This document shows positions 1-58,564 of a DNA stretch of 64,000 bases, one piece after another (within the stretch, counting starts at the first letter, position 1; every line of letters begins with the position of its first letter). Below the pieces are notes generated by a model. That model had not been told where the DNA came from, did not search any database, and saw only the letters and a list, made by a program, of their open reading frames with translations. A program made the position numbers and the translations under genes. This DNA is from an uncultured Thermoanaerobaculia bacterium (GTDB taxonomy: Bacteria > Acidobacteriota > Thermoanaerobaculia > Multivoradales > SZUA-115). The stretch is taken from assembly GCA_964420075.1 (NCBI GenBank), contig CAYQRE010000010.1, positions 77,885 through 141,884 on the forward strand. Direction: 5' to 3'.

Positions 1-1092
1 GGCGCGCTGCTCGACCTGCCGCGCCTGGAGCTGGGCGAGCCAGGGCGCGAGCTCCTGCCCGAGGTCGAGGGCCACGCGCACCGGCAGGGTGTTGATGAAC
101 GGCCCGACGATCGTCTCGACGCCTGGAAGCTCGGCCGGGCGACCGGCCACCGTCGCGCCGAAGACCACCTCGGTGCGCCCCGTCTCCGCGGCCAGGAGCA
201 GCGACCAGGCGCCCTGGACGAGCGTGTTCAAGGTGAGCCGCTCGCGGCGGGCGAGGTCTCGCAGGGCCTCGGAGGTCGCTGCCGGCAACGCCGTGCGGCG
301 GCGGCGACCCTGCCGAAAATCGGCACCGCGACCGTGATGCGCCTCGCCGGCCGCCAACCAGCAAGGCTCGCTGAGCCCGGCCAGCTCGCGCCGCCAGAAG
401 GCCTCGGCGGCGGCCGGGTCCTGGCGCTGCAGCCAGGCGATGTAGTCACGGTAGGCGCGTGCCGGCGGCAGGCGTGGCGCCTTGCCGGCGGCGAGGGCCG
501 AGTAGGCGGCGAACAGCTCCTTGAGCAGCTGGCCCTGGGCCCAACCGTCGATCAGCAGGTGATGCTGGCTCCACACCAGGCGGTGGTCGGCCGGTCCGAG
601 CGCGAAGAGCGCCACCCGCAGCAGGGGGGCTGTGCCGAGGTCGAAGCCGCGCTCGCGATCGGCATCGAGATGGGCGGCGAGGCGGCCCTCCTGCTCGGCG
701 GGCGAGAGTCCCTGCCAGGACTCCTCGTGGAGGGGCAGGGGCACCTCGCGGTAAACCACCTGGACCGGCTTTTCGAGCTCTTCCCAGTAGAAGGCGGTGC
801 GCAGGATGGCGTGGCGGTCGAGCAGGTATTGCCAGGCGCGGGCGAAGGCCGCGTGGTCCAGGGGGCCGCCCAGGCGCAGCGAGAGTTGCACCACGTAGAC
901 CCCCGAGCCGGGGGCGTAGACGCTGTGAAAGAGCATCGCCTGCTGCATCGGCGACAGCTCGTAGACCTGCTCCACCTGGCTCTCGGCGAGCCCCTCGCTC
1001 GCCGCCTCGCCGGCCGCAGTGTCGTGGGCCAAAGAGTCGTCTGGCAGAGTGTCTTCTGCCAAGGTCTCGGTCGCTGGTCTCTCGTCGGTCAT
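1..1092 (-). CDS. NRPS, N-terminal part (DCL-type condensation domain); continues off the left edge
   Basis: My translation from ATG at 1092: MTDERPATET...VEQVYELSPMQQAMLFHSVY...RHAILRTAF...SQHHLLIDGWAQ...VGPFINTLPVRV, open to base 1. The LSPMQxxMLFH start and HHLLIDGW match DCL C domains that follow an epimerase. Absent from the ORF track because it has no stop in the window. Confidence 0.93.
   Translation of the reverse strand, partial: MTDERPATETLAEDTLPDDSLAHDTAAGEAASEGLAESQVEQVYELSPMQQAMLFHSVYAPGSGVYVVQLSLRLGGPLDHAAFARAWQYLLDRHAILRTAFYWEELEKPVQVVYREVPLPLHEESWQGLSPAEQEGRLAAHLDADRERGFDLGTAPLLRVALFALGPADHRLVWSQHHLLIDGWAQGQLLKELFAAYSALAAGKAPRLPPARAYRDYIAWLQRQDPAAAEAFWRRELAGLSEPCWLAAGEAHHGRGADFRQGRRRRTALPAATSEALRDLARRERLTLNTLVQGAWSLLLAAETGRTEVVFGATVAGRPAELPGVETIVGPFINTLPVRVALDLGQELAPWLAQLQARQVEQRA
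1018..1062 (-). repeat. Three imperfect 15-bp tandem units encoding LAEDT/LPDDS/LAHDT in the acidic N-terminal linker of the NRPS
   Basis: Plus strand agtgtcgtgggccaa / agagtcgtctggcag / agtgtcttctgccaa. Confidence 0.6.
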
Positions 1093-1126
1093 TCCCGTTG
1101 TCTCCCCGCGCCCAGGCACCTGCACC

Positions 1127-3541: not shown

Positions 3542-3564
3542 GGCTCCTCGTGCGCGGCGGACGG

Positions 3565-12500: not shown

Positions 12501-14553
12501 GTGCCAGCGCGGCCTCGTCGAGGGGTACTGCCAGCATGGCACCGGGGGGCAAGGCGGCGATCATTCGCCCCCGCTCGGCCACCAGGGCGAGGGCGTCCTC
12601 GAAGCTCATCACGCCGGCCAGGTGGGCCGCCACGTACTCGCCCACGCTGTGGCCGAGGAGGGCGCGCGGCACGAGCCCCCAGGACATCCACAACCGGGCG
12701 AGCGCCACCTCGAGCAGGAAGAGCGCCGGCTGGGTGAGGGCGGTGTCGGCGAGGCGCTCCTCGGCGACCGCGCGCTGCGCCTCCGGGGCGAACAGCAGCG
12801 CCCGCAAGTCCTCGCCGAGGAGCGGCGCGAGGTGCTCCGCGCCGCGGTCCACCTCGCGGCGGAAGACGGGCTCGGCGGCATAGAGCGCCGCCCCCTGGCC
12901 GGCCCGTTGGGCGCCCTGGCCGGGGAAGACGAAGGCGAGCTCCGGGCTGCCGTCAAGGGCGCGGCCGGTCCGCTGCCGCGCCGGCTCGCGGAGCGCCGCC
13001 AGGGCCTCGGCGCGCCCGGCGGCCACCACCGCCCGGCGCTCGCCGAGCCGCCGCCGCCCGACCTGCAGGGTGTAGGCGACGTCCGCGAGGTCGCGGCCGG
13101 GGTCGGCCTCCAGGTGGTCGGCGAGGCGCGTGGCCATCGCCTCCACCGCAGTGGCGCTGCGCGCCGCGAGCAGCAGGAGCTGCCACGGCCGCGACGGCGA
13201 GGTGGCGGGCGGTGGCGGCGCCTCTTCGAGCACCACGTGGGCGTTGGTGCCGCCGATGCCGAGCGAGCTCACGGCGGCCCGCCGCGGCCCTTCGCCGCGC
13301 TCCCAGGGGGTGAGCGTTGCCGGCACGTAGAAGGGGCTCTCCGCCAGCTCCAGGTGCGGATTGGGCACGGTGAAATGCAGGGTCGGCGGCACCTCGCCGT
13401 GCTCGAGGGCGAGCACCGCCTTGGCGAGGCCGGCGATGCCGGCGGCGACGTCGAGATGGCCGAGGTTGCCCTTGAGCGAACCCAAGGCGCAGAAGCCGCG
13501 ACGGCGCGCCCCCGCGGCCCGGAAGGCCCGGCTCAGGGCCTGCACCTCGATGGGGTCGCCGAGCGGTGTGCCGGTGCCGTGGGCCTCCACGAAGCCGATC
13601 GTCTCGGGGTCGATCTCGGCCGCCGCCAGGGCCCGCGCCACCACCTCCGCCTGGCCCTCGAGGCTGGGGGCGGTAAAGCCCGCCTTGGCGGCGCCGTCGT
13701 TGTTGATCGCCGAGCTCTTGACCACGGCGCGCACCGGGTCGCCGGCGGCGCGGGCGTCCGACAGCCGCTTGAGCACCACCAGGCCGGCGCCGCTGCCGAA
13801 AACCGTGCCGCGGGCGGCGGCATCGAAGGGGCGGCAGTGGCCGTCCGGGGAGAGGATGCCGTCCTCCTGGTAGAGGTAGCCCACGGTCTGCGGCGTGCGC
13901 ACGGTGACGCCGCCGGCGAGGGCAACGTCGCAGTCGTAGTCGAGGAGGGCCTGGCGGGCGAGGTGGACGGCGACCAGCGCCGTCGAGCAGGCGGTCTGCA
14001 CCGAGACGCTCGGCCCGCGCAGGTTGAGCTTGTAGGAGACGCGGGTGCACAGCGTGTCCTTGTCGTTGGCCAGCACCAGCGGCCAGCCTTCCTCGCTCGC
14101 GGCCCGCGGCAGGAGGTGAAAGAGCAGGTAGGTGCTGAGCACCGAGCCGGCGAAGAGGCCGATGCGGCCGGGATAGGTGTCGGGGTCGATCGCCGCCGTC
14201 TCGAGGGCCTCCCAGGCGCATTCGAGGAGCAGGCGGTGCTGCGGGTCGGTCACCGCCGCCTCGCGGGGCGACATGGCGAAGAGCCCAGCGTCGAAGCCCT
14301 CGATGCCGGCGAGCACGCCGCGCGCCGGCACGTAGCGCGGATCGCCGAGCTGGGCGGCGGGCACCTTGCCGGCAGCGAGCTCGGCGGCCGAGAAGCGGCG
14401 GATCGACTCGACGCCCTGGCGCAGGTTCTGCCACAGGCTGGCGACGTCCTGGGCGCCGGGGAAGCGGCCGGCGAGGCCGACGATCGCCACCTCGTCGAAG
14501 GCGTCGATCTCCGGCCCCTGGTCGTCGTCCGCGCGGCGCTCGTGCTCGCTCAT
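3565..14553 (-). CDS. Hybrid PKS-NRPS: KS-AT(malonyl)-ACP-C-A-PCP-C-A-PCP-E-COM(donor)
   Basis: KS QTACS / EAHGTGT / KGNLGH with hybrid-type NDKD motif. AT GHSVG and HAFHS; no KR/DH; ACP GGDSL. C domains HHIASDGWS and HHIIADGWS; two A domains YTSGSTGRPKG; PCP GGHSL then GGDSI. E domain PIQRWFF, HHLIVDGVSW, EGHGR, RTVGW; C-terminal TPTDFP. Start taken at MSEHERR (14553) after a GGGGAG SD; the ORF track extends to 14568. Confidence 0.96.
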   Translation of the reverse strand: MSEHERRADDDQGPEIDAFDEVAIVGLAGRFPGAQDVASLWQNLRQGVESIRRFSAAELAAGKVPAAQLGDPRYVPARGVLAGIEGFDAGLFAMSPREAAVTDPQHRLLLECAWEALETAAIDPDTYPGRIGLFAGSVLSTYLLFHLLPRAASEEGWPLVLANDKDTLCTRVSYKLNLRGPSVSVQTACSTALVAVHLARQALLDYDCDVALAGGVTVRTPQTVGYLYQEDGILSPDGHCRPFDAAARGTVFGSGAGLVVLKRLSDARAAGDPVRAVVKSSAINNDGAAKAGFTAPSLEGQAEVVARALAAAEIDPETIGFVEAHGTGTPLGDPIEVQALSRAFRAAGARRRGFCALGSLKGNLGHLDVAAGIAGLAKAVLALEHGEVPPTLHFTVPNPHLELAESPFYVPATLTPWERGEGPRRAAVSSLGIGGTNAHVVLEEAPPPPATSPSRPWQLLLLAARSATAVEAMATRLADHLEADPGRDLADVAYTLQVGRRRLGERRAVVAAGRAEALAALREPARQRTGRALDGSPELAFVFPGQGAQRAGQGAALYAAEPVFRREVDRGAEHLAPLLGEDLRALLFAPEAQRAVAEERLADTALTQPALFLLEVALARLWMSWGLVPRALLGHSVGEYVAAHLAGVMSFEDALALVAERGRMIAALPPGAMLAVPLDEAALAPRLSGGLAVAVVNAADRVVVAGEEAAVEALRQELATEGVEARRLRTSHAFHSPLLEPVVEPFRRRVAQLALAPPQVPFLSNVSGGWITAEEATDPAYWARHLRQTVRFGAGLAALAAEPNRVLLEVGPGRGLTRLARRWEGEAGRRLPAFASFGDDDSLAEPAAVLGTLGALWTQGLEPDWRAYYGEERRRRLALPTYPFERRRLWIEPADPAAPPAGLAWEGLEGPAAAAGPGQGPEAAPLAPHEEAVAAVWREVLGLAQLAAGESFFDLGGDSLIALQVVARLRQRLGVETPVQLLFENPTLGAFATAVAARQAASSTAALPPLRVTAATAPAPLSSSQRRLWFLDQLEPGNPAYNLRYLLELDGRLDVAALVAAFAWVCGRHAVLRSTFTVCDGEPEQRLASAAGADGRAPAALGRNVVDLGGLPPAVRVATAERLAQAGTGRGFDLARGPLVRLLLLRRQATAHDLALAVHHIASDGWSMGILLREVAAAYGAWRAGTAPALPPLPAQFADFARWQAAWLAGPALAADLAFWRQALAGAPAGLELPADRPPPARRSLAGLSVPVAIDAATTAALAGLARTEGASPFMALLAVFASQLRRATGERDLTIGTPVAGRPLPELEALVGLFVNTLVLRADLGGDPSFRTLLGRLRATTLAAFEHQAMPFERLVEELQPERDLGRNPLFQVMFALHNTPLPSLALGAEGLRLATRELASRTAMFDLTLALAERDGRLVGSLEVAADLFDRATAERWAGHFGRLLAAAVASPDQRLWELPVLTPEEEAQLRGWLARPQPFALTATLDRRLAHWLAATPEAIAVVAGEEALSYGELGRRAWQVAAALRAEGVGPDVPVGLYVGRRVELAVGITAVLLAGGAYLPLDASYPPSRLAAMLADAAAPVLLAGEEPRGELAAVPRMIRLDRPAPGPAPPLPPADLELDHLAYVIYTSGSTGRPKGVACTHRGALNLLADLDRRRPLVPGEAAALWTSISFDVSVWEVFAALAYGGTLVVPGEEERVRAEALLPWLAARAIRSAYLPPFLLSELLARVSAPAAAPHPLARLLVGVEPIREPVLSGLAAALPGLTVVNGYGPTEATVCATFYDVGRAPAPERKAPLGLPVANCRVALLGADLELVPVGIPGEVWIGGAGLARGYLGRPGLTADRFMPDPLAGSPGGGPAGGRCYRSGDLARRHADGNLEFLGRRDQQVKVRGHRIELAEVEAALTRLPGVREAAVAVRPDPRGEGQLVAFVVAPAGGAELDDWRQALRQALPDAMVPAALVRLAALPLTPSSKLDRRALPAPDWAAAGTSTGEAPRGAVEGLLAELFAELLGRERVSAGEDFFSLGGHSLLGIRLVSRLREVFHVELPVRRLFEAPTVAGLAAVIAELRRGGQPEAPPIEPCPRQDGEELPLAFAQQRLWIVDQLSPGNPAYNIPAAVRLGGELRVAALRQVFATIAGRHEVLRTSFPATAGRPRLEVRPRWRPPLPVVDLAALPGTARAATLDTLARREARRPFDLARGPLFRLALLRLAAADHALLMTCHHIIADGWSMGLLEREVASLYAALVAGETSPLAPLPVQYADFAAWQRAWLQGEVLVSQLAYWRAQLAGAPQRLELPTDRPRPLAPTYRGASRPLVISAELTAGLDALGRRLQATRFITLASLWAGLLGRAAQQDELVVGIPIANRNRRETEGLIGFFVNALALRVDLGGAPTLAALVARVRQSVLGAFAHQDLPFEQLVAEIAPNRDLASSPLFQATFSLEEAPLAGLALPGLTLAPIAQGAVTAKFELSLTLRPAAGGLRGQLEHDADLFDATTIERLKARLLAWLAAAAVDPETPLAALPWLLAGERQQVLCEVNDAASAFPRAAGLSELFAVQAARAPEAAAVIDETATWSYHRLAATAGGLGRRLADLGVGPGDLVGVAMERSAELVASLLGILAAGAAYVPLDPGYPDARLLFMLADTQATVILVHARTRQRLEALLAAHPEVRERLVPVDEEVAALAARPVATDLPLVKPASSLELAYVIYTSGSTGRPKGVAVPQQAVVRLVRDTNYVHLGPGDRLAHLSNISFDAATFEIWGALLNGGGLVVISKEVTLSPAVFVARLRATGVTAMGIATALFHQMVREEPGAFGFLRDVLFGGDAADPRALALAQQGGAACRLLNCYGPTECTAVATYHEVGPVGPDLVTVPIGLPIGNTSAYVADRSLGALALGEPGELLLGGEGLARGYLRRPAATAERFVPHPWGAPGERLYRSGDLVRRRADGALEFLGRIDHQVKVRGFRIELGEIQAALAEHPAVAEVVVLARADGPGEKRLVAYLVARPGVVLEAATLRDFLAEKLPPFMVPAAFVGLDALPVSANGKLDLKALPAPVWETAEAAVEEPASGVEATLAAIWAQVLGVERVGPRDNFFELGGDSILSIQVVSRAQQAGLAFGVRDLFQHQTVAELAAVVRPSAASDEAVEVDGEVPLLPIQRWFFDLDVAAPGHFNQSLLLTLSEPVEGARLERALGLLARRHTALRCRYEQRADGRWRQYSGTAPTPLLRVDLSGLGAAESAAVEALAARLQASLDLTAGPLWRAALFQLSGTAQRLFLVLHHLIVDGVSWRILLGDLELAYRGLAAAAVPALPAVPQPLAGWAARLAAEAGSAATRAELPYWSAAEGRLPPPLAPAATQPTTADWSRADQPPPTDVATVADFGTVAAAASHTVELDEETTRALVQEVPAATRASTLDALLLALTQALGAADGGSASGRPAALWLHLEGHGRDEAFPDADASRTVGWLTALYPVLLSLDGRERTPGEQLRTIKEQLRAVPRGGLGYGLLRYLGEAATAERLAAIPAPEVVFNYLGQLDRGLAGSSLFAPAAERGGPPRAASQRRTHLLEINGGVSGGRLRLTWTYPPERLARATVEGWGARFRAALAALIAHCRAPAEAAPGPTAFTPTDFPQARVSQKDLDTLMKKIGRRPSPAAPKGR

Positions 14554-14564
14554 CTCCCCTCCCC

Positions 14565-17500
14565 TCACCGCCGGCGCGCCAGGGCGCGGCGGCGCCGCTC
14601 GCGTGCCTCGCGCTCCTCGCGGGCCCGTTCGTGCAAGCCGCCGAGCTGCCCGGCCAGCGGCTCGTCCAGGCCTGCCGCCGCCTGCAGGCGGCGGGCGAGC
14701 CCTTGCACCGTGGGGTGCCGGAAGAGCTCGAGGAGGGGCAGCTCGCTCCCCATCTCCTCGCGCAGCCGGCCGTGCACCTCGGCGGCGGCCAGCGAGTGGC
14801 CGCCGAGGTCGAAGAAGTTGTCGTGGACGCCCACCCGCTCCACCCCCAGCACCTGCTGCCAGATGGCGGCGATCCGCCGCTCGGCCTCGCTCTGCGGCGA
14901 GACGAAGGCGGCCCCCAGCTGCGGGCGCTCGTGGCCGGGCTCGGGCAGGCCGCGGCGATCCACCTTGCCGCTGGGCAGCAAGGGCAAGGCGGGCAGGAAG
15001 AGGGCGAGCGAGGGCACCATGGGCGGCGGCAGCGTCTCTGCCAGGTAGGTGCGCAAGGTGTCCCAGGCGAGGTCGCCCCCCGCTTCCTGTACCACGTAAG
15101 CGACCAGGCGGGCGGCGCTCCCCGTGCCGTGGACCACCACCACCGCCTGGCGCACCGCCGGATGCGCCAGCAGCACGGCCTCGATCTCCCCCAGCTCGAG
15201 GCGGAAGCCGCGGATCTTCACCTGGTGGTCCCGCCGGCCGAGGTGCTCCAGGCGGCCGTCGGCGAGCCGGCGGGCGAGATCGCCGGTGCGGTAGAGGCGG
15301 GCCCCGGCGGCGCCCCAGGGGTCGGGCACGAAGCGCTCGGCGGCGAGGCCGGCGCGGCCGTGGTAGCCGCGCGCCAGGCCCTCACCGCCGATCAACAGCT
15401 CACCGGCGGCGCCAAGCGGCGCGAGCTCGCCGTGCCGGCCGGCGAGGTGCACCGTGGTGTTGGCGAGCGGCCGGCCGATCGACACCTCGGGCGTGGCGCC
15501 GAGGCGCTCGGCCGTCGACCACACGGTCGTCTCGGTGGGGCCGTAGACGTTCCACAGCTCGCCCACCCGCGGCAGCAAGCGGTCGGCGAGCGAGCGCGGC
15601 AGGGGCTCGCCGCCGCACAGCACCTTGAGGCCTGGTTGGCCGGCCCAGCCGCCGTCGAGCAGCAGGCCGAAGGTGGTGGGGGTGGCCTGCATCACGGTGG
15701 CGCCGGCCACGGTGAGGGCGGCGGCGAGCTCGCGCGGGTCCGCCACCACCTCACGGCGCACCAGCTCGATGCGGGCGCCGACCACCAGCGGCAGCAGCAG
15801 CTCACTGACGGCGATATCGAAGGACAGCGTGGTCACCGCCATCACCACGTCGTCCGCCGTCATGCCGGGCCGCTCGGCCATCGTCGAGAGGTAGTTGAGC
15901 ACCCCGCGCTGGCGGACGCTGACTCCCTTCGGGCGCCCCGTCGAGCCGGAGGTGTAGATCACATAGGCCACCGACTCGCCGTGCGCCGGCGAGCGCCACG
16001 GCCCAGGTGCCGGCGGCGGCGCGGCCTCCAGCCAGGCGACGGCCGGGGGCGGGCCGCCGCGGGCCGCGAGCTCGGCACCGGCGGCGTCGAGGGTCGCTGC
16101 CAGCGCCCGCTCGGCGAGCACCAGGCTGGCGCCGCTGTCGGCCAGCATGTGGGCCAGGCGGGCCGCCGGCAGCGCTGGGTCGAGCGGCACGTAGGCCCCC
16201 CCGGCCGCCAGCACCGCCAGCACGGCGACGAGCATCGCGGGCGTGCGCTCGCTGCAGATCGCCACCGCCACCTCTGGCCCCACGCCGCGCCGCGCCAGCT
16301 CGGCGGCCCAGGCCGTGGCCTGCGCGATCAGCGCACCGTAAGAGAGCTCGGCGCCGACGGCGCGCACCGCCTGCCGCGCTGGGTCGCGGGCCGCGGTGGC
16401 GGCAACCCACTCCCACACCGAGCCGGCGGCGGGCAGCGGCGCGGCGCTGTCGTTCACCTCCACCACCAGCTGCTGGCGCTCGGCAGCGGTGAGCGCGGCA
16501 AGCTGCGCGAGGGGTGCTGCCGGCCGCGCTACGGCACTCGCCAGCAGGGCCGCCAGCTGGCCGCCGAAGCGGTCGATCGTGGTGCGATCGAAGAGGTCGA
16601 GGTTGAGCTCGAGGCTGCCGGCGAGGCCGCCGTCGGGCTGCTCGGCAAGGTCGACGGTGAGGTCGAACTTGGCGCTGTCGGTCGTCAGGTCCAGGCGTTC
16701 GAGGGCGAGGCCCGGCAGCGCCAAGCGGGCCGGCGGCGCGTTCTGCAACGCCAGCATCACCACGAAGAGGGGCGCGTGGCCGAGCGAGCGCTCCACCCCC
16801 AACTCTTCGACCAGCTTCTCGAACGGCAGCTCCTCGTGCCGGGCCGCCGCGAGGCTCGCCTGGCGCGCCGCGGCGAGGAGATCGGCAAAGGGCGGGTCAC
16901 CCGGCAGCGCGGTGCGCAGCACCAGGGTGTTCATGAAGAGCCCGATCAGGCCCTCGATCTCCGTCCGGTTGCGGCCGGCGACCGGGGCGCCCACCGCGAT
17001 GTCGGTCTCGCCGCTCAGCCGGCGCAGCAGGGCGGTGAGCGCGGCGAGCAGCACCATGAAGAGGGTCGCGCCGTGGCGGCTGCCCAGAACGCGCGCCGCG
17101 GCCACCAGTGCCGGCGGCAGCCGGAACGGCAGGCGGGTGCCGCGATGCGTCTCGACGGCCGGCCGCGGCCGGTCGGTGGGCAGCTGCAGCAGGGGCGGCG
17201 CGCCGGCGAGCTGACGCCGCCAATAGGCCACCAGCTCGCCGTAGGCGGGGCCCGCGAGGTGGGCGCGCTGCCAGGCCGCGAAGTCCGCGTAGTCGAGCGG
17301 CAACGGCGCGAGCGGCGACGGCGCACCGGCGACGAACGCCGCGTAGAGGGCCGCGAGCTCGCGGGTCAGCAGGGCCACCGACCAGCCGTCGCAGACGATG
17401 TGGTGCAGGTTGAGGAGCAGCTGGTGCTCGCCGGCCGCGAGGCGCAGCAGCGAGAGCCGCCAGAGGGGTCCGCGGGCAAGGTCGAACGGCCGGCGGGCAC

Positions 17501-20500
17501 CGCGCGCGAGGAGCCCGCTCGCGACCTCCTCGCGCCGCCCGGCGGCGAGGCCGCAGAGGTCGACGGTGGCGAGCCGCGGCCGGCCCGGCGGGCGCAGACG
17601 CTGCACCGGCTTGCCTGCCACCGTGCCGAAGGTGGCGCGCAGCACGGCGTGGCGGCGCTCGATCTCGGCCAGGGCGCGGGCCAGGGCTGCCGGAGCGAGG
17701 TTGCCGCCGAGATGCACCGCCGCCGGCATGTTGTAGGCACTGCTGCCGGGCTCCAGGCGATCGAGGAACCACAGGCGCTGCTGCCCGAACGAGAGCGGCG
17801 GCCCGGCCTCACCGTCGGTGCCGCGGCGGGGGATCGCCGCCAGGGCCCCCCCGGTGGCCTCCGCTCGCGCGTAGCCCAGCCGCGCCGCGAGCTCCCAGCT
17901 CGCCGCGCCGAGCTCACCCACGTTCGACGCCGCGCGGTCCGCGACGGCTGCCTCGATCCGCCCGTAGCGGTGGAACTTCGGGTCTCCCATCATGCGCCCG
18001 GCGGCGTGCAGGCCGTCGGTCATCCGGCGGCCCTCGTAGGGGCGCAGCATCGCCGGCGCGAAGTCGAGGCCGAGGAAGGCGCAGAGGTGCTCGATCACCC
18101 GCTGCGGCGAGCGCACCAGCTCCTCGAAGCAGAGCCGGTGCTGCCGCTCGGCGGGCACCCCCGCCAGGTGGTCGAGGATGTTGGCGTGCGCCAGCCGCCA
18201 CACCATCTCGGCCTGGCGGCGGGCCGGCAGCGGGAAACGATAGACCTCGTCGAAGCTCGCCTCGAGGTAGGAGTGGATGGTCGCCGCCGGATGGCGCACC
18301 AGGTGGACGTAGAGGGGCGCCTCGAACCACGCCTCGGCGCGCGCGAGGGTCGCGCGGTCGAGGGCGTAGCGGGGCGTCTTGTCGACCAGCAGGCGGGGGG
18401 CCGCCATCGCCTGCAGCTGGCGGTAGAGCTCCTGGCTCGGTGCGTCACGCGCGACGGCCGCGGCCACCCAGGCCGCTGCGGCCTCGGCAGTCGAGCCGGC
18501 GAGCTCCATCACCGCCCGCAACAGCCCCTCGGCGCCGAAGCTGTCGCGGCCGGCGAAGGCCTGGGCGCGGGCGCCGAGAGTCGTGAACCCGAGGAGCTCG
18601 AGCTCGGGCGGCGCGAAGAGACCGGGGTGGCCGGCGAGCATCACCCGCAGCAGGGTCGAGCCGGAGCGAAACGGCGACAGCAGGAAGACGGCGGGCGGGT
18701 TGCGCTCCGCCGGGGCCGCCGACGGCGGCGAGAAGCGGCCCGCGAGGTGGGCGGTGAGGACGGCGAGGTCGGCGGCGTCATCCCGCGGCGCCGCGGCGGC
18801 ATCCGCCGCGGGGTGCGCGATGAGCGCTGGCGCCAGCCAGCCCGCCGCTGCGAGGGCCGGGCGGTAGCTCGCGGTGAGGAAGGCGGCGAAGCGGCGGATG
18901 GTCGGATGGTCGAAGAGGGCCATCACGTAGACGATCGCCCCCAGCTCGCTCTGCAGCCGGTTGATCAGCAGCGCCCCCTGGATCGAGTCGCCACCGAGGG
19001 CGAAGAAGTCGTCCTCGGCGCCGGGGGCGGGCACCCCCAGCTGGGCGCTCCACAGAAGGGCCAAGCGCTCCTCGACCGCGCCGGCGGGCGCGACCCAGGA
19101 GCGAACGGCCCCGGCACCCTCCTCGGCCGGCGCCGGCAAGGCGCGCCGGTCCACCTTGCCGCTCGGCGAGAGCGGCAACGCTGGCAGGTTCACGAAGACG
19201 GCCGGCAGCATGTAGTCCGGCAACCGAGCGGCGAGGTGCGAGCGCAGCGTCGCGACCTCCGGCGCGGCACCAGCCGCCACCAGGTACGCCACCAGGCGCC
19301 CGTCGCGCAGCACCACCACCGACTCGCGCACCGCCGGATGGGCATCGAGCGCCGCCTCGATCTCCCCGAGCTCGATGCGCAGGCCGCGCAGCTTGACCTG
19401 GTGGTCGAGGCGGCCGAGGAAGTCGATGGCGCCGTCTGGCCGGAGGCGGGCCAGGTCGCCGGTAGCGTAGGCCCGGCCACCCGCCCCTTCGGGGGTCGCC
19501 AGCGGGTCCGGCACGAAGCGCTCGGCGGTGAGGCCCGGCCGACCGCGGTAGCCGCGCGCCAGGCCGACCCCGGCGATGTGCAGGTGGCCGGCGGCGCCGA
19601 GGGCCACCGGCCGGCCGGCGCGGTCGAGGACCGCGAGGCGCAGGTTGCTGATCGGGCGGCCGATCGGCACGGCGCGGCCGTCGCCGGCGCGCTCGCGGCC
19701 GCAGGGCCATGCGGTGACGTCGACCGCCGCCTCGGTGGGGCCGTAGAGGTTGTGGAGCTCGGCCGGCAAGAGTGCCGCCGCCCGCTCCACGAGATCGCGG
19801 GGCAGCGCCTCGCCGCTCGCGATCAGCCGCCGCAGCCCGCGGCAGCTCGCCGCCCGCGGGTCGGCGAGGAAGACCTGCAGCATCGAGGGCACGAAGTGCA
19901 GGGTGGTGACCGCCTCGGCGCGGATCAGCTCCACGAGGTAAGCGCTGTCCTGGTGACCGCCGGGGCGGGCGAGGACCAGCTTCGCCCCCACCCGCAGGGG
20001 CCAGAAGAGCTCCCACACCGAGACGTCGAAGCTGATCGGCGTCTTCTGCAGCACCGCCTCGCCGGCAGCGAGCCCGTATTCGGCCTGCATCCAGGCCAGG
20101 CGGTTGACGATCGCCCGGTGGCAGACCATCACCCCTTTCGGCCGCCCGGTGGAACCCGAGGTGAAGAGTACGTAGGCCAGGTTCTCGGGACCGAGGCCGC
20201 TCGCCGGCGGTGCCGCCGCCTCGGCCGGCATGGCCTCATCGTCGAGGAGCAGCCAGCGGCCGGCGGGCAGCCTCTCCACCAGGGCCGCCTGGGTCAACCC
20301 CAAGAGGGCGCCGCCGTCCGCCAGCATGATCGCCAGGCGCTCCGCGGGGTAGGCGGGATCGAGGGGCAGGTAGGCCCCACCCGCCTTGAGCACGGCGTAG
20401 AGCGCCACCATCAGCTCGCAGGAGCGCTCGGCCGCCACCCCCACTACCACCTCGGGGCCGACGCCGAGCCCGCGCAGGCGATGGGCGAGGGCGTTGGCGC

Positions 20501-23500
20501 GGCGGTCGAGCTCGCCGTAGCTCAGGATGCGGCCCTCGGCGACCAGCGCCACCGCCGCGGGGGTGCGCGCCGCCTGCGCCTCGAAGGGGGCCAGCAGCAG
20601 GCCGGCATCGAGGCCGGCGACGGCCGTGTCGTTCCACTCGGCCGCCAGCTGCTGGCGCTCGCCCGGCGCCAGGAGCGGCAGCTCCCCGAGCGGTAGGCGC
20701 GGGTCCGCCACGGCGGCGGCGAGGAGGCGCGTGAAGGCGCCCGTCCAGCGGTCGACCGTGGTGGCATCGAAGAGGTCGCGGCTGTACTTGGTGACCGCGA
20801 CGAGCCCGTCGCTGGCGGGCTGGAGCGACAGCGCCAAGTCGAAACGGGCGGTGCCGGTGTCGACCTCCTCGGCGATCGCCGTGAGGCCCGGCGGCGGCGT
20901 CACCAGCAGGGGCGCGTTCTGCAGCACCAGCATCACCTGCACGAGTGGCGTGTGGGCGAGGTTGCGCTCCGGCACCAGCTCGTCGACCAAGCGCTCGAAG
21001 GGCACCTCGCGGTCGGCGAGGGCGGCGAGCACCCCCTGGCGGCAGCGGCCGAGGAGGGCGAGGAAGTCGAGGTCCGGCGCCAGCTGGGTGCGCAGGGGCA
21101 GGGTGTTGACGAAGAGGCCGACCATCGCCTCGAGCTCCGGGCGGTCGCGGTTCGCCACCGCCGAGCCGACCACCAGATCCCGCTGGCCAGTGAGCCGGTA
21201 GAGCAGGGCCTGGAAGGCGGCGAGGTAGACCATGAACGGGCTGGCGTCCTGGGCGGCGGCGAGGGCGGCGACGCCGGCGACGAGCGGTGCCGGTAGGGCA
21301 TGCCGGCGATGGCCGCCGCGGAAGCTCTGCTGCGCCGGCCGCGGGCGGTCGGCAGGCAGGCTCACCAGGGGTGGCGCCCCGGCCAGCCGCGCGCGCCAGG
21401 CGGCGAGCTGGGCTACCGCGTGCGGCTCGGCGAGGCGCGCCTGCTGCCAAGCGGCGAAGTCCCCGTAGTCGATCTCGAGGGCGGCGAGGGGCGCGGCCGC
21501 CCCCGCGGCGTTCGTGGCGTAGAGGGCCATCAGCTCGCGCAGCAGCACGCCGAACGACCAGCCATCGCTCACGATGTGATGGGCGGCGACGAGGAGGGCG
21601 TGTTCGTCCTCGCCCAGGCGGGCGACGGCAGCGCGCCAGAGCGGCCCACGAGCGAGCGAGAAGGGCCGGCGCGAACCCTGCCGGAGGACCGCGGCGAGCG
21701 CCTGCGGGCAGCCCTGGAGGTCCACCATCGGGATGGCTGGTCCTCCCGGTGCCGCCGGGGCCACCACCTGCACGGCGGCGCCGGCGTCCACGTGGATCGT
21801 GCTGCGCAGGGCCTCGTGGCGGCACACCAAGCCACGCCAGGCAGCTGCCAGCGGGGCGAGCCGCAGGGGCCCGGCGAGCTGCACCCCGACGCCGAGGTTG
21901 TAGGCCGGGTTGCCGGGATCCAGCTGGTCGAGAAACCACAGGCGGCACTGCGGCGACGACAGCGGCAACGGACGGTCGCGGGGTTGGCGCGGCAGGGGCC
22001 CGGCGGCGGGCGCCGCTGCCGTGGCGAGCCGGGCAGCGAGGGCGGCGAGGGTGGGCGCCGCGAAGAGCTCTGCGAGCGAGACGGCGAGGCCGATGCCTTC
22101 CAGGCGGGCGAGGAGCTGGCTGCCGCGCACCGAGTCCCCACCGAGGGCGAAGAAGCTGTCGGTGGCCCCCACGCTGCCGGCCGGCAGGCTCAAGACCTCC
22201 TCCCAAAGGCGGGCGAGGAGCACCTCCTCGGCGCTGCGCGGCGCGAGCTGCGCCGGCCCGGCGGCGAGGGGGCCGGCGAATTGCCCGACCGCCGGCAGCT
22301 CGCCGGCCAGGAAGAGCTGGCGGCAGGCGCTGCGCTGGACCTTGCCGCTCGTCGTCTTGGGCACGCCGCCGGGCTTGACCAGCACCAGCGTGGCGAGCTC
22401 GATCTCGTGTTCCTCCGCCACCGCCTGGCGGGCGGCGAGCGCCACTTCCTCCGGCACGGCGCGGGCGCGCAGATCGATCTCCTGCACCACCACCAACCGT
22501 TCCTCGCCGGCCGCCTCGACGGCGAAGGCGGCGACGCCACCCGGGCGCATGGCGGGGTGACTGCGCTCGACGCTGGCCTCGATGTCCTGCGGGTAGAGGT
22601 TGCGGCCGCGGATCAGGATCAGGTCCTTGCGGCGGCCGGTGACGAAGAGCTCGCCGCCAGCGAGGATGCCGAGGTCGCCCGTGCGCAGGTAGCTGCCGGG
22701 CTCACCCGCGAGCCGGGCGCCGAAGGCCTCGGCGGTGGCCTCCTCGCGCTGCCAGTAGCCGGCGGCGACCCCGGCCCCGGCCACCCACAGCTCGCCGACG
22801 CTGCCCGGCGGGCACGGCTCGCCGCGCTCCGCGTCCACCACCCGCACGGTGACGCCGCTCGGCATTTGGCCGCTGCTCACCAGCTCGCGCACCGCCGGCG
22901 CCTCGCCCGCCGCGGCGGGCTCCACCCGACCCGCGGCGAGCGCCTCGCTCGCCAGCCGCAGGCGCGCCGGTGAGGCGGCGGCACGAACGCCTGAAACCAG
23001 CAACGTCGCCTCGGCGAGGCCGTAGCAGGGAAAGAATGCCGTGGCCCGAAAGCCGGCACCGGCAAGGGCAGCCGCGAAGCGATCGAGGGTCTCGGCGCGC
23101 ACCGGCTCGGCGCCGTTGAAGGCCACCCGCCAGGCGGCGAGGTCGAGGCCGGCGCAGTCTCCCTCCGTGAGGCGGCGCGCACACAGGTCGTAAGCGAAGT
23201 TCGGTCCGCCGCTCACCGTCGCGCGGTGGCGGTCCACCGCCGCCAACCAACGCGCCGGCCGCTGCAGGAAATGAAGCGGCGACATCAAGATGCAGCGCGC
23301 ACCGAGGAAGAGGGGATGGAGCAAGCCGCCGATCAGGCCCATGTCGTGGTAGAGCGGCAACCAGCTCACCACCACCGTGCGCTCATCGGTGCGGAAGGCC
23401 TCGGCGATCATCCGCTGGTTGGCCAGCAGGTTGCCGTGGGTGACCATCACGCCCTTGGGCTCGCTGGTCGAGCCCGAGGTGTACTGCAAGAAGGCGAGGT

Positions 23501-24107
23501 CCTGCGGCCCGGGCGCCGCCGGGCGCCAGCTGGCCGCCAGCGCGCGGTCGAGGCGATCGGTGGCGAGGCGCGGCAGCGTGGTGGTGGCCGGCCGCTCACG
23601 CCCGAGGCGCTCCCAAGTGCTCTCCAGGCTGGCCGCCGTGAGCACCGCCGCGGGCGCCGCGTCGGCGACGATGGACAGCAAACGCGGCAGGCCGCGGCTG
23701 CCCGTGGGCGGGTAGGCGGGCACCGCCACCAGCCCGGCGTAAAGGCAGCCGAGGAAGCTCACGGCATAGTCGAGGCCGGGAGGCAGCAGGAGCAGCACGC
23801 GCGCCGCCGGCGCCAGCCGCTGCTGGGCGAGCCATGCCGCCACGGCCCGCGCGGCACGATCGAGCTCGCCATAGCTCAGCGCCTGCTCGTCGCCGTCGCC
23901 GTCCGCGAGCCAGACGCAGGCCACGCGCTCCGCATGGGCGCCGGCGCGCCAGCGCAGGAGATCCACCAGAGAGTTGACCTCGGCGGGAGCGCCCTCGGGG
24001 CCGCGGGACGGTGGGCTGCGGGTCTCTGCTGGTCTCGACATCACGCTGCGTTCGCTGGGTCTCTTGCTGGGATCGCTCGGAGTAGGGCCGCCCATGGAGA
24101 CAACCAA
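14565..24107 (-). CDS. Lipoinitiating NRPS: FAAL-ACP-C-A(Ser)-PCP-sulfotransferase-C-A(Gly)-PCP-docking domain
   Basis: FAAL LAFLQYTSGST, WLPLYHDMGLIG, CYGLAEATL, GRRKDLI, KTTSGK with the FAAL-specific insertion. A1 code read as DVWHISLVDK (Ser); A2 DISQLGVVWK (Gly-like). Internal ST motifs; Arg-rich C-terminal docking helix. True start uncertain (ATG 24041, 24095 or 24107). Confidence 0.95.
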   Translation of the reverse strand: MVVSMGGPTPSDPSKRPSERSVMSRPAETRSPPSRGPEGAPAEVNSLVDLLRWRAGAHAERVACVWLADGDGDEQALSYGELDRAARAVAAWLAQQRLAPAARVLLLLPPGLDYAVSFLGCLYAGLVAVPAYPPTGSRGLPRLLSIVADAAPAAVLTAASLESTWERLGRERPATTTLPRLATDRLDRALAASWRPAAPGPQDLAFLQYTSGSTSEPKGVMVTHGNLLANQRMIAEAFRTDERTVVVSWLPLYHDMGLIGGLLHPLFLGARCILMSPLHFLQRPARWLAAVDRHRATVSGGPNFAYDLCARRLTEGDCAGLDLAAWRVAFNGAEPVRAETLDRFAAALAGAGFRATAFFPCYGLAEATLLVSGVRAAASPARLRLASEALAAGRVEPAAAGEAPAVRELVSSGQMPSGVTVRVVDAERGEPCPPGSVGELWVAGAGVAAGYWQREEATAEAFGARLAGEPGSYLRTGDLGILAGGELFVTGRRKDLILIRGRNLYPQDIEASVERSHPAMRPGGVAAFAVEAAGEERLVVVQEIDLRARAVPEEVALAARQAVAEEHEIELATLVLVKPGGVPKTTSGKVQRSACRQLFLAGELPAVGQFAGPLAAGPAQLAPRSAEEVLLARLWEEVLSLPAGSVGATDSFFALGGDSVRGSQLLARLEGIGLAVSLAELFAAPTLAALAARLATAAAPAAGPLPRQPRDRPLPLSSPQCRLWFLDQLDPGNPAYNLGVGVQLAGPLRLAPLAAAWRGLVCRHEALRSTIHVDAGAAVQVVAPAAPGGPAIPMVDLQGCPQALAAVLRQGSRRPFSLARGPLWRAAVARLGEDEHALLVAAHHIVSDGWSFGVLLRELMALYATNAAGAAAPLAALEIDYGDFAAWQQARLAEPHAVAQLAAWRARLAGAPPLVSLPADRPRPAQQSFRGGHRRHALPAPLVAGVAALAAAQDASPFMVYLAAFQALLYRLTGQRDLVVGSAVANRDRPELEAMVGLFVNTLPLRTQLAPDLDFLALLGRCRQGVLAALADREVPFERLVDELVPERNLAHTPLVQVMLVLQNAPLLVTPPPGLTAIAEEVDTGTARFDLALSLQPASDGLVAVTKYSRDLFDATTVDRWTGAFTRLLAAAVADPRLPLGELPLLAPGERQQLAAEWNDTAVAGLDAGLLLAPFEAQAARTPAAVALVAEGRILSYGELDRRANALAHRLRGLGVGPEVVVGVAAERSCELMVALYAVLKAGGAYLPLDPAYPAERLAIMLADGGALLGLTQAALVERLPAGRWLLLDDEAMPAEAAAPPASGLGPENLAYVLFTSGSTGRPKGVMVCHRAIVNRLAWMQAEYGLAAGEAVLQKTPISFDVSVWELFWPLRVGAKLVLARPGGHQDSAYLVELIRAEAVTTLHFVPSMLQVFLADPRAASCRGLRRLIASGEALPRDLVERAAALLPAELHNLYGPTEAAVDVTAWPCGRERAGDGRAVPIGRPISNLRLAVLDRAGRPVALGAAGHLHIAGVGLARGYRGRPGLTAERFVPDPLATPEGAGGRAYATGDLARLRPDGAIDFLGRLDHQVKLRGLRIELGEIEAALDAHPAVRESVVVLRDGRLVAYLVAAGAAPEVATLRSHLAARLPDYMLPAVFVNLPALPLSPSGKVDRRALPAPAEEGAGAVRSWVAPAGAVEERLALLWSAQLGVPAPGAEDDFFALGGDSIQGALLINRLQSELGAIVYVMALFDHPTIRRFAAFLTASYRPALAAAGWLAPALIAHPAADAAAAPRDDAADLAVLTAHLAGRFSPPSAAPAERNPPAVFLLSPFRSGSTLLRVMLAGHPGLFAPPELELLGFTTLGARAQAFAGRDSFGAEGLLRAVMELAGSTAEAAAAWVAAAVARDAPSQELYRQLQAMAAPRLLVDKTPRYALDRATLARAEAWFEAPLYVHLVRHPAATIHSYLEASFDEVYRFPLPARRQAEMVWRLAHANILDHLAGVPAERQHRLCFEELVRSPQRVIEHLCAFLGLDFAPAMLRPYEGRRMTDGLHAAGRMMGDPKFHRYGRIEAAVADRAASNVGELGAASWELAARLGYARAEATGGALAAIPRRGTDGEAGPPLSFGQQRLWFLDRLEPGSSAYNMPAAVHLGGNLAPAALARALAEIERRHAVLRATFGTVAGKPVQRLRPPGRPRLATVDLCGLAAGRREEVASGLLARGARRPFDLARGPLWRLSLLRLAAGEHQLLLNLHHIVCDGWSVALLTRELAALYAAFVAGAPSPLAPLPLDYADFAAWQRAHLAGPAYGELVAYWRRQLAGAPPLLQLPTDRPRPAVETHRGTRLPFRLPPALVAAARVLGSRHGATLFMVLLAALTALLRRLSGETDIAVGAPVAGRNRTEIEGLIGLFMNTLVLRTALPGDPPFADLLAAARQASLAAARHEELPFEKLVEELGVERSLGHAPLFVVMLALQNAPPARLALPGLALERLDLTTDSAKFDLTVDLAEQPDGGLAGSLELNLDLFDRTTIDRFGGQLAALLASAVARPAAPLAQLAALTAAERQQLVVEVNDSAAPLPAAGSVWEWVAATAARDPARQAVRAVGAELSYGALIAQATAWAAELARRGVGPEVAVAICSERTPAMLVAVLAVLAAGGAYVPLDPALPAARLAHMLADSGASLVLAERALAATLDAAGAELAARGGPPPAVAWLEAAPPPAPGPWRSPAHGESVAYVIYTSGSTGRPKGVSVRQRGVLNYLSTMAERPGMTADDVVMAVTTLSFDIAVSELLLPLVVGARIELVRREVVADPRELAAALTVAGATVMQATPTTFGLLLDGGWAGQPGLKVLCGGEPLPRSLADRLLPRVGELWNVYGPTETTVWSTAERLGATPEVSIGRPLANTTVHLAGRHGELAPLGAAGELLIGGEGLARGYHGRAGLAAERFVPDPWGAAGARLYRTGDLARRLADGRLEHLGRRDHQVKIRGFRLELGEIEAVLLAHPAVRQAVVVVHGTGSAARLVAYVVQEAGGDLAWDTLRTYLAETLPPPMVPSLALFLPALPLLPSGKVDRRGLPEPGHERPQLGAAFVSPQSEAERRIAAIWQQVLGVERVGVHDNFFDLGGHSLAAAEVHGRLREEMGSELPLLELFRHPTVQGLARRLQAAAGLDEPLAGQLGGLHERAREEREARERRRRALARRR
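17870..18700 (-). other. Sulfotransferase domain embedded in the NRPS between PCP1 and C2 (boundaries approximate)
   Basis: AVFLLSPFRSGSTLL (5'-phosphosulfate loop), PPEL, VDKTPRY, HLVRHPAATIHS (3'-phosphate binding), FEELVRSPQRVIEHLCAFLGL, GDPKF. Confidence 0.88.
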
Positions 24108-35264: not shown

Positions 35265-35374
35265 GGCCTCGCTTTTCTTCGCTGCCGCGCCTGTGCTGGA
35301 ATGCCCGCTCCACCGAGAGAAGCGGGCCCGCTGGCTTCCCGCACCGCAGGCGCCGGACGGCGCAAGGAGAGACG

Positions 35375-36469: not shown

Positions 36470-36505
36470 GGCCCGCCGCTCCGCGGCCCTCCCCGGGGGC
36501 CCTGC

Positions 36506-37729: not shown

Positions 37730-37738
37730 GGGAACGGC

Positions 37739-57718: not shown

Positions 57719-57800
57719 GGTGCCTCTGTCCCGCTCGGCGCCACCCGCGCAAGCCCAGATGCGCTGCCGGCTCGCGGCGGGTCGCGAAACTTGCGTCCGC

Positions 57801-58445: not shown

Positions 58446-58510
58446 CGCTCCTCCACGCAGGGCCTACGGGTCACGGCCGCGACTCGTCGACTCTCCAGCC
58501 GCCCGGAGAG

Positions 58511-58526
58511 TGTTCCACGTGAAACC
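58511..58526. promoter_or_regulatory. parS site 1
   Basis: TGTTCCACGTGAAACC vs consensus TGTTTCACGTGAAACA. Confidence 0.85.
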
Positions 58527-58548
58527 TCCTTGGCGCCACCACGGGCAC

Positions 58549-58564
58549 AGTTTCACGTGAAACG
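58549..58564. promoter_or_regulatory. parS site 2
   Basis: AGTTTCACGTGAAACG with a perfect 14-bp palindromic core. Confidence 0.88.

What the first reader, a model, noticed from the sequence alone, without database searches (positions are those of the whole stretch)
17870..19090. In-cis sulfotransferase domain inside an NRPS directly after a serine module
Seen: a roughly 275-aa region with PAPS-binding motifs (SPFRSGSTLL, DKTPRY, LVRHP...S, GDPKF) sits between the Ser-module PCP and the next C domain. That PCP has GGDSI, the variant usually found before an in-cis tailoring domain, not GGHSL. Established: similar carrier-dependent STs occur in CurM and olefin synthase (sulfating a beta-hydroxyacyl-ACP as a leaving group) and in some cyanopeptolin loading modules. 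There is no TE directly after it here and the next C domain has a canonical HHIVCDGWS. Inference: it either O-sulfates the Ser hydroxyl (or a hydroxy-acyl tail) on the line to give a sulfo-lipopeptide, or installs sulfate as a leaving group for elimination to dehydroalanine or ring formation. This is the strongest candidate for new biochemistry in the window.
Basis: partly seen in the sequence, partly recalled or inferred. Interest (0 to 1): 0.92.

Follow-up and report, generated by a model that had tools for sequence, protein, structure and literature searches.

The report
Sulfotransferase domain inside an NRPS serine module
A peptide-assembly enzyme of an uncultured soil-type Acidobacterium carries a built-in sulfotransferase right after its serine-loading unit, most likely to put a sulfate on that serine while the lipopeptide is being built; this kind of module is common in that phylum but I found no study of it.

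Summary
On the minus strand, an intact 3180-aa NRPS (14565-24107) reads FAAL-ACP-C-A(Ser)-PCP-ST-C-A(Gly-like)-PCP. The ST (17928-18725) aligns end to end with the CurM and olefin-synthase STs (E 1e-61 to 1e-64, TM 0.84-0.87). The PAPS motifs and the proposed catalytic Glu are invariant.

It is not a one-off. More than 588 relatives occur in GTDB species genomes, mostly Acidobacteriota. Among the best 80 loci nearly all are A-PCP-ST-C or A-PCP-ST-TE. Of 54 ST modules, 49 have Ser, Thr or Tyr specificity codes, against 12 of 60 neighbouring modules (p = 4e-15). No PCP before an ST has GGHSL.

Cyanobacterial FkbH-PCP-ST-C loading modules, the type known to make sulfated glycerate, nest among the NRPS STs and share their PPELELL motif; CurM and OLS have PPELHLL. 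C domains after an ST are ordinary LCL types, and a TE after an ST is generic, not CurM-like.

Best reading: PAPS-dependent O-sulfation of the carrier-bound N-acyl-seryl hydroxyl, with the sulfate probably kept in the product. Use as a leaving group (dehydroalanine or a ring) is not excluded.

This is a new variant of a known kind. Nothing here is tested biochemically.

The parts
14565..24107 (-). NRPS gene A, 3180 aa: FAAL-ACP-C-A(Ser)-PCP-ST-C-A(Gly-like)-PCP. Its stop overlaps the start of gene B.
   Evidence: ORF list, translation, Pfam domains, core motifs
22278..23975 (-). Fatty acyl-AMP ligase (FAAL) loading domain
   Evidence: PDB phmmer: FAAL structures 7r7f (E 2e-171), 3kxw, and FadD23/32/28
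22008..22235 (-). ACP of the lipid-loading unit (GGDSV)
   Evidence: PP-binding hit, motif at residue 656
20658..21977 (-). First C domain (lipo-initiation). It clusters with the equivalent C domains of related Acidobacteriota loci.
19128..20585 (-). A domain, specificity code DVWHISLVDK (Ser-like)
   Evidence: The same code recurs in other ST modules.
18873..19091 (-). PCP of the Ser module, with GGDSI instead of GGHSL
   Evidence: No His at this position in 54 of 54 PCPs before an ST.
17928..18725 (-). Sulfotransferase domain (Sulfotransfer_3, CurM/OLS-type fold). PSB loop 18654-18677; PPE with the proposed catalytic Glu1835 at 18591-18611; DK 18366-18386; RHP..S 18270-18302; conserved low-confidence stretch (probable mobile flap) 17973-18026.
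16458..17810 (-). C domain after the ST (HHIVCDGWS). It nests among ordinary LCL-type C domains.
14928..16400 (-). A domain, code DISQLGVVWK (Gly-like)
14673..14885 (-). PCP (GGHSL)
3565..14568 (-). PKS-NRPS gene B, 3667 aa: KS-AT-ACP-C-A-PCP-C-A-PCP(GGDSI)-E. No KR motif found.
1127..3541 (-). MacB/FtsX-type ABC permease between the NRPS genes, a likely exporter
   Evidence: Pfam; the identical gene call is on record
1..1170 (-). Start of a third NRPS gene (C domain). It runs off the window.

Best explanation
The domain is an active PAPS-dependent O-sulfotransferase built into the first amino-acid module of a lipopeptide/polyketide assembly line.

Proposed sequence of events:
1. The FAAL-ACP-C unit puts a fatty acyl group on Ser held as a thioester on the PCP.
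2. The PCP, whose GGDSI motif marks carriers that must visit an extra in-cis domain, delivers the (N-acyl-)seryl side chain to the ST.
3. Glu1835 (in PPE) deprotonates the beta-hydroxyl, and the sulfuryl group of PAPS is transferred to give Ser-O-sulfate.
4. The ordinary LCL C domain then joins this sulfated donor to Gly. The chain goes on through the KS-AT-ACP module and further NRPS modules.
5. The sulfate ester stays in the exported product, an anionic sulfo-lipopeptide.

Shown: domain identity, fold, intact motifs, and the family-wide link to Ser/Thr/Tyr modules.
Inferred: the substrate hydroxyl, the timing, and retention of the sulfate.
For: Identity and intactness:
- Pfam Sulfotransfer_3.
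- E 1e-61 to 1e-64 to the CurM and OLS STs over the whole domain.
- AF2 model pTM 0.82; Foldseek TM 0.87 and 0.84 to 4gbm and 4gox.
- RSGST, PPE, DK, RHP..S and GD are invariant across 17 aligned STs.

Substrate is the side-chain hydroxyl of the module's own residue:
- In 13 large NRPSs plus the window, 12 of 16 ST modules have Ser/Thr/Tyr codes against 6 of 40 others (p = 3.5e-5).
- In 80 genome loci the figures are 49 of 54 against 12 of 60 (p = 4e-15).
- Every member of the window's own ST clade for which a code could be read is Ser-specific.

Retention of the sulfate:
- Tyr-coded modules also carry the ST. An aryl sulfate cannot be eliminated.
- Cyanobacterial FkbM-FkbH-PCP-ST-C loading modules match the OciA/DysB type, whose products carry sulfated glyceric acid (PMC2533009, PMC6520454). 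They nest among the NRPS STs.
- All 89 NRPS-type STs sampled lack the CurM/OLS PPELHLL motif; 86 have PPELELL, 2 PPELQLL and 1 PPELEML.
- STs followed by C and by TE are intermixed in the tree and group by substrate.
- C domains after an ST are intermixed with ordinary LCL domains, with no discriminating column.
- The TE after an ST is a generic NRPS TE. CurM TE is not among the hits.
Against: - No biochemical data exist for any member, and no product is known.
- The closest solved relatives (CurM, OLS) are the two STs whose sulfate is a leaving group.
- The window's ST belongs to a separate clade (Ser only, always followed by C, always the first module after lipo-initiation). That clade is sister to the clade that holds the glycerate- and Tyr-type STs, not inside it, so the phylogenetic bracket for retention is indirect.
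- The tree is a single neighbour-joining tree without support values.
- A Ser-O-sulfate thioester is chemically set up for beta-elimination.
- No PAPS-supply genes are visible in the part of the cluster held in the window.
Confidence: 0.55

Rival explanations
1. Activating sulfation. The ST sulfates the Ser hydroxyl only to make it a leaving group. Beta-elimination then gives N-acyl-dehydroalanine, or the neighbouring acyl-amide oxygen or another nucleophile displaces the sulfate to form an oxazoline or another ring. Either happens on the PCP or in the next C domain, and no sulfur remains in the product.
For: - The nearest solved homologues are the two 'activating' STs, CurM and OLS.
- The window's clade is restricted to Ser, the only proteinogenic residue that gives Dha. 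It always sits directly after lipo-initiation, so an N-acyl-Ser (an oxazoline precursor) is always the substrate.
- This clade never pairs with a TE and has its own motif variants, SPFRSGST and GDPKF. The latter resembles the GDPNF/SDPNF of OLS and CurM.
- The alpha-proton of a thioester is acidic (chemistry, own knowledge).
Against: - The next C domain is an ordinary HHxxxDG LCL type with no extra His and no clade-independent signature.
- There is no lyase-like or Cy domain.
- The His of CurM/OLS (PPELHLL) is replaced, as in the glycerate-type STs.
- In CurM the sulfated beta-hydroxyacyl-ACP is stable until the dedicated TE acts (own knowledge of Gu et al. 2009). Nothing comparable follows here.
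Confidence: 0.25
2. The ST acts on a different hydroxyl: a beta-hydroxy fatty acyl chain delivered by the FAAL, or a later intermediate acted on in trans.
For: - CurM and OLS STs act on beta-hydroxyacyl carriers (own knowledge).
- In the window's clade the ST module always follows the lipid-loading unit.
Against: - If the acyl chain were the substrate, nothing would force the module's A domain to be Ser. Yet every readable code in the clade is Ser, and 49 of 54 ST modules overall are Ser, Thr or Tyr, many of them deep inside multi-module proteins.
- No KR or hydroxylase is visible to make a beta-hydroxyacyl starter.
Confidence: 0.08
3. The domain is catalytically dead and serves only as a structural spacer.
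For: None specific. No PAPS-supply genes lie nearby.
Against: All PAPS-binding and catalytic motifs are invariant, and the domain is conserved at 61-74% identity across the clade.
Confidence: 0.05

Closest known systems
CurM ST and olefin-synthase (OLS) ST (PDB 4GBM, 4GOX): 'activating' sulfotransferases of ACP-ST-TE termination modules
   Same: Same protein family and fold: 43-46% identity in the alignment, E 1e-61 to 1e-64, TM 0.84-0.87. Same PAPS motifs and the same Glu in PPE. The substrate is carrier-tethered, and the ST sits directly after the carrier domain.
   Different: Here the ST is followed by a C domain, not a TE, and sits in an amino-acid module rather than a KS-AT-KR module. The residue two after the Glu is Glu, not His (PPELELL against PPELHLL). 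The substrate is inferred to be a Ser side chain, not a beta-hydroxyacyl chain. The fate of the sulfate is probably different.
ST domains of NRPS glycerate-loading modules (OciA of cyanopeptolin/oscillapeptin, DysB of dysinosin; FkbH-PCP-ST-C)
   Same: Same PCP-ST-C order inside an NRPS. Same PPELELL and GG(D)SI features. About 50% identity. They nest among the NRPS STs in the tree. The known products keep the sulfate (PMC2533009, PMC6520454).
   Different: Those are loading modules that take glycerate through an FkbH domain and have no A domain. Here the ST serves an A(Ser) module that receives an acyl chain. The window's ST lies in a different clade. I inferred that the Nostoc loci are OciA/DysB-like from their domain content; I did not compare them with the OciA or DysB sequences themselves.
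SulN of the sulfazecin pathway (free-standing ST acting on a PCP-bound peptide)
   Same: It sulfonates an NRPS carrier-bound intermediate before release (PMC11298585).
   Different: SulN acts in trans and makes an N-sulfonate on diaminopropionate. Homology to the window's ST was not tested.
Tyrosylprotein sulfotransferases (TPST1/2)
   Same: These are the next-best structural matches after CurM and OLS (TM about 0.55). They are peptide O-sulfotransferases.
   Different: They are only distantly related (about 20% identity) and act on free protein substrates.

Membership tests
CurM/OLS-type sulfotransferase family (Pfam Sulfotransfer_3; PDB 4GBM/4GOX) | Full-length sequence homology to the solved domains | tested here: met
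   phmmer E 2.3e-64 (4gox) and 4.1e-61 (4gbm) over about 262 residues. Pfam PF13469 scores 86.7 bits against a cut-off of 27.
CurM/OLS-type sulfotransferase family (Pfam Sulfotransfer_3; PDB 4GBM/4GOX) | Same fold | tested here: met
   AF2 model pLDDT 80, pTM 0.82. Foldseek TM 0.87 and 0.84, well ahead of the next hits at about 0.55.
CurM/OLS-type sulfotransferase family (Pfam Sulfotransfer_3; PDB 4GBM/4GOX) | PAPS-binding loops (5'-PSB RSGST, 3'-PB RHP..S) and the proposed catalytic Glu in PPE | tested here: met
   Invariant columns R20, G22, T24, P39-P40-E41, D115-K116, R144, P146, S152 and D248. The role of the Glu is recalled from McCarthy et al. 2012; that paper could not be opened.
CurM/OLS-type sulfotransferase family (Pfam Sulfotransfer_3; PDB 4GBM/4GOX) | His two residues after the catalytic Glu (PPELHLL) | tested here: not met
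   The window has PPELELL. None of the 89 NRPS-type STs has the His; CurM, OLS and 14 of 23 free ACP-ST proteins do.
'Activating' ACP-ST-TE off-loading module (curacin, olefin synthase) | ST followed by a dedicated TE that hydrolyses and decarboxylates with loss of sulfate | tested here: not met
   A C domain follows the ST and gene A has no TE. Even in relatives with ST-TE, the TE is a generic NRPS type.
'Activating' ACP-ST-TE off-loading module (curacin, olefin synthase) | Sulfate used as a leaving group | not testable with these tools
   Needs mass spectrometry of carrier-bound intermediates or the product structure.
NRPS glycerate-loading ST modules (OciA/DysB type) | PCP-ST-C domain order inside an NRPS | tested here: met
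   The same order occurs in 14 cyanobacterial loci.
NRPS glycerate-loading ST modules (OciA/DysB type) | FkbH glycerate-loading domain upstream of the PCP, with no A domain | tested here: not met
   The window has a Ser-coded A domain upstream. The Nostoc locus L026 has FkbM plus FkbH (TIGR01686, E 4e-95).
A(Ser/Thr/Tyr)-PCP-ST-C/TE modules of Acidobacteriota (uncharacterised class defined here) | A-domain code for a hydroxy amino acid | tested here: met
   DVWHISLVDK. The class as a whole: 49 of 54.
A(Ser/Thr/Tyr)-PCP-ST-C/TE modules of Acidobacteriota (uncharacterised class defined here) | Carrier motif GG[DNST]S[IL] instead of GGHSL | tested here: met
   GGDSI in the window. The class: 54 of 54.
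A(Ser/Thr/Tyr)-PCP-ST-C/TE modules of Acidobacteriota (uncharacterised class defined here) | Groups with these STs in a tree | tested here: met
   The window lies within a clade of Ser-module STs followed by C (L003-L017, L019, L020; 61-74% identity). This is a neighbour-joining tree without support values.

The most novel reading that the evidence does not exclude
In the window's own clade ([FAAL]-ACP-C-A(Ser)-PCP-ST-C, Ser only, never followed by a TE), the sulfate is a leaving group installed on the assembly line. N-acyl-Ser-O-sulfate would then be converted, without any Cy or lyase domain, into N-acyl-dehydroalanine or a 2-alkyl-oxazoline (or another ring) before or during the next condensation. 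That would be a sulfation-driven route to dehydro or heterocyclic residues in nonribosomal peptides.
Probability: 0.22. Interest if true: 0.9.

Novelty: new variant of a known kind. Interest (0 to 1): 0.6.

Why it matters
In-cis sulfotransferases are documented in only two settings: PKS termination modules (CurM, OLS), where the sulfate leaves, and cyanobacterial glycerate-loading modules (OciA, DysB), where it stays.

This window shows a third setting, an ordinary amino-acid module, and the comparative data show that it is a large class. The class spans hundreds of loci, mainly in Acidobacteriota, a phylum rich in unexplored biosynthetic genes. It has simple diagnostic marks: a Ser, Thr or Tyr code, a carrier motif without His, and PPELELL.

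If the reading is right:
- These bacteria make many sulfated peptides that standard structure predictors would miss.
- The domain could serve as a portable tool for site-specific sulfation on assembly lines.

If the leaving-group reading is right for this clade, it would be a new route to dehydroalanine or rings. Either outcome can be tested directly with a four-domain construct.

Tried and rejected
- **PAPS supply or sulfatase genes near the cluster.** None found. The window from 24 to 64 kb holds housekeeping genes (BNR protein, cyclophilin, BshC, Dus, PLP enzyme, ParA, Jag, YidC). The cluster runs off the left end.
- **Extending the cluster beyond the window start.** I looked up the permease gene, but the public contigs that carry it are only 4.8-6 kb. 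A ParA look-up found nothing.
- **The window's own genome among GTDB species representatives.** Not there; the best ST match is 74%.
- **A specialised C-domain type after the ST** (dehydrating, or with a sulfate-binding residue). The tree shows these C domains intermixed with ordinary ones. No alignment column separates the two groups; the largest frequency difference is 0.42. A mild drop in acidic residues at three columns is too weak to use.
- **A CurM-like TE in ST-TE relatives.** Rejected; only generic NRPS, PKS and FAS TEs were hit.
- **Literature.** Eight full-text searches found no paper on an ST in an amino-acid NRPS module. The library lacks most subscription journals, so this is not proof of absence.
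- **The CurM/OLS ST structure paper.** It could not be opened, so residue roles are from memory.
- **First ST-only protein search.** It returned mostly free ACP-ST proteins of about 430 aa and hid the large NRPSs. The ST+C query solved this.
Full report
**Observation**

The window is 70-77% G+C. The finding lies on the minus strand inside an uninterrupted 3180-aa ORF, 14565-24107. Pfam finds three AMP-binding, two Condensation and three PP-binding stretches, plus one Sulfotransfer_3 domain at residues 1805-2017 (E 3.5e-24, 86.7 bits against a cut-off of 27).

Core motifs give the order FAAL-ACP(GGDSV)-C-A-PCP(GGDSI)-ST-C(HHIVCDGWS)-A-PCP(GGHSL). The first adenylating domain is a fatty acyl-AMP ligase; its best PDB matches are FAAL structures, from E 2e-171. 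In frame, the finding's span is 17871-19091 and contains the PCP, a linker and the ST. The ST core is 17928-18725.

**The cluster**

- Gene A overlaps the start of gene B (3565-14568). Gene B reads KS-AT-ACP-C-A-PCP-C-A-PCP(GGDSI)-E. The last domain carries the epimerase motifs HHLIVDG, EGHGR and FNYLG.
- A MacB/FtsX permease (1127-3541) and the start of a third NRPS gene (1-1170) follow.
- To the right of gene A the genes are housekeeping ones, and no PAPS-related gene is present.
- The specificity codes are DVWHISLVDK (Ser-like) for the ST module and DISQLGVVWK (Gly-like) for the next.
- The named best hits of a PLP enzyme in the window are Thermoanaerobaculia (Acidobacteriota) MAGs.

**The ST domain itself**

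- phmmer against PDB sequences gives the olefin-synthase ST (4gox, E 2.3e-64) and the CurM ST (4gbm, E 4.1e-61). Both align almost without gaps over about 262 residues.
- An AlphaFold2 model built on 15 sequences (pLDDT 80, pTM 0.82) superposes on 4gbm and 4gox with TM 0.87 and 0.84. The next matches are tyrosylprotein sulfotransferases at about 0.55.
- In an alignment of 15 NRPS STs with CurM and OLS, these are invariant: the 5'-phosphosulfate loop (RSGST), PPE (the proposed catalytic Glu of CurM ST, from my memory of McCarthy et al. 2012), DK, RHP..S and GD.
- One position differs by class. CurM, OLS and most free ACP-ST proteins have PPELHLL. Of the 89 NRPS-embedded STs sampled, 86 have PPELELL, 2 have PPELQLL and 1 has PPELEML.
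- The only long low-confidence stretch of the model is the sequence-invariant TDG.H...RM.GD.KF segment. It is plausibly the mobile active-site flap described for this family.

**How common it is**

- A HMMER scan of 1.84 billion representative proteins with ST+C as the query found that 13 of the 150 best-scoring proteins have one continuous match across both domains. All 13 are 3,400-7,000-aa NRPSs, and some carry two STs.
The best 80 loci come mostly from Thermoanaerobaculia, Holophagales, Blastocatellia and other Acidobacteriota MAGs. A few come from Herpetosiphonaceae or other Chloroflexota, one from a deltaproteobacterial MAG, and a block from Nostoc, Anabaena, Snowella and Crocosphaera.
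- Domain mapping shows that nearly all are A-PCP-ST-C or A-PCP-ST-TE. The cyanobacterial loci have no A domain before the PCP.
- One of these, Nostoc sp. C117 (L026), reads FkbM-FkbH-PCP-ST-C-A-PCP-C, with FkbH TIGR01686 at E 4e-95. This is the architecture described for the sulfated-glycerate loading modules of cyanopeptolins and dysinosins (PMC2533009, PMC6520454).

**What the ST acts on**

- In the 13 large proteins plus the window, 12 of 16 ST modules have Ser-, Thr- or Tyr-type codes, against 6 of 40 other modules in the same proteins (Fisher p = 3.5e-5).
- In the genome loci the figures are 49 of 54 (22 Ser, 23 Thr, 4 Tyr) against 12 of 60 (p = 4e-15).
- The carrier before an ST never has GGHSL. 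The motifs are GGNSI (20), GGDSI (18), GGSSI (10) and others (6). Ordinary carriers are mostly GGHSL.

The ST is therefore tied to modules that load a hydroxy amino acid, at any depth in the assembly line. This points to the residue's own side chain as the substrate rather than an acyl tail.

**Where the window's ST sits**

A neighbour-joining tree, without support values, places it in a clade made up only of Ser modules followed by C (L003-L017, L019, L020; 61-74% identity). This clade has its own motif variants, SPFRSGST and GDPKF.

Wherever enough upstream sequence is held, these loci read ACP(GGDSL)-C-A(Ser)-PCP(GGDSI)-ST-C. The first C domains also form one clade together with the window's. 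The conserved cassette is therefore lipo-initiation plus Ser plus ST. Loci L005, L006 and L008 continue with A-PCP-KS, as the window does.

The second, larger NRPS clade mixes ST-C and ST-TE modules and groups them by substrate. The cyanobacterial glycerate-type STs are nested within it. CurM and OLS fall outside, with some free ACP-ST proteins.

**Fate of the sulfate**

Evidence for retention:
- Tyr-coded modules carry the same ST.
- The glycerate-type relatives make retained sulfate esters.
- STs followed by C and by TE are interchangeable in the tree.
- C domains after an ST are scattered among ordinary LCL domains, with no discriminating column.
- The TE after an ST matches generic NRPS TEs (best 4zxh, E 7e-26), and the CurM TE is not among the hits.

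Evidence for a leaving-group role:
- The nearest solved relatives are the two activating STs.
- The window's clade is Ser-only, always N-acylated and never followed by a TE.
- It is sister to, not inside, the clade with known retaining members.

I put on-line O-sulfation of the Ser hydroxyl at about 0.75-0.8. Within that, retention is somewhat more likely than elimination or cyclisation. This gives 0.55 for the full best explanation and 0.25 for the activating rival.

**Comparison with what is known, and novelty**

By sequence, fold and motifs the domain is a member of the CurM/OLS ST family. It fails the two features that define the activating module: a TE partner and the His after the Glu. 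It shares the PCP-ST-C order and the PPELELL mark with the OciA/DysB-type loading modules, but it has an A(Ser) domain instead of FkbH.

Eight full-text searches found no description of an ST in an amino-acid NRPS module. The library omits most subscription journals, so I rate this a new variant of a known kind, not a new category.

**Limits**

- All functional statements are inferences from sequence.
- Specificity codes are predictions.
- The trees are distance trees without support values.
- The OciA and DysB sequences themselves were not compared.
- The rest of the cluster lies outside the window.

Noticed in passing
Proteins P0002-P0120, e.g. P0090 (Thiothrix nivea), P0074 (Synechococcus sp. 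CBW1004): Free-standing ACP-ST two-domain proteins of about 430 aa are the commonest relatives of this ST across many phyla. Most carry the CurM-like PPELHLL motif. I know of no described function.
   Followed up: partly
Loci L022, L031, L033, L036, L042, L046, L051, L055, L067, L069-L074, L081; P0168 residues 4606-5192: Many Acidobacteriota NRPSs end in A(Ser/Thr)-PCP-ST-TE. The TE looks like a generic NRPS TE, not the CurM type. The C-terminal residue is therefore either released sulfated or processed in an unknown way.
   Followed up: partly
L001 (ENA contig_31439), 2330-4345 and 10001-11329; also L021, L054, L058, L078, P0127, P0206: Single assembly lines can carry two ST modules, which points to multiply sulfated peptides. 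L001 looks like a frameshift-rich long-read assembly.
   Followed up: partly
window 3565-14568 (-): Gene B starts with KS-AT-ACP and has no recognisable KR, so a beta-keto unit would follow the Gly-like residue. It ends in PCP(GGDSI)-E. Two of its A-domain codes (DVWYLGGVCK, DAFGLGCAVK) match no specificity I recognise.
   Followed up: partly
window 1127-3541 (-): A MacB/FtsX-type permease gene lies between two NRPS genes, as expected for export of a lipopeptide.
   Followed up: no
window 34637-39310: An HMG-CoA-synthase-like ORF (+), an AstE/AspA-like gene (-) and a thiolase/KS-like gene (-) lie together, outside the NRPS cluster. Coding statistics for the first ORF are weak.
   Followed up: no
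window 56960-61308 (-): parA, jag (R3H domain) and yidC lie in a row, the usual origin-proximal gene set. The cluster may therefore lie within about 35-40 kb of the replication origin.
   Followed up: no
window 17973-18026 (-), ST slice residues 236-255: The most sequence-conserved stretch of the ST (RMTDG.H...RM.GD.KF) is the least confident part of the AF2 model (pLDDT below 50). This fits a mobile active-site flap.
   Followed up: no
Logan runs SRR17659510, SRR17659526, SRR17659537, SRR17659544, SRR17659559 (L083-L087): Genes identical to those in the window recur in a series of public sequencing runs, so the organism is present in those samples. The sample type was not looked up.
   Followed up: no
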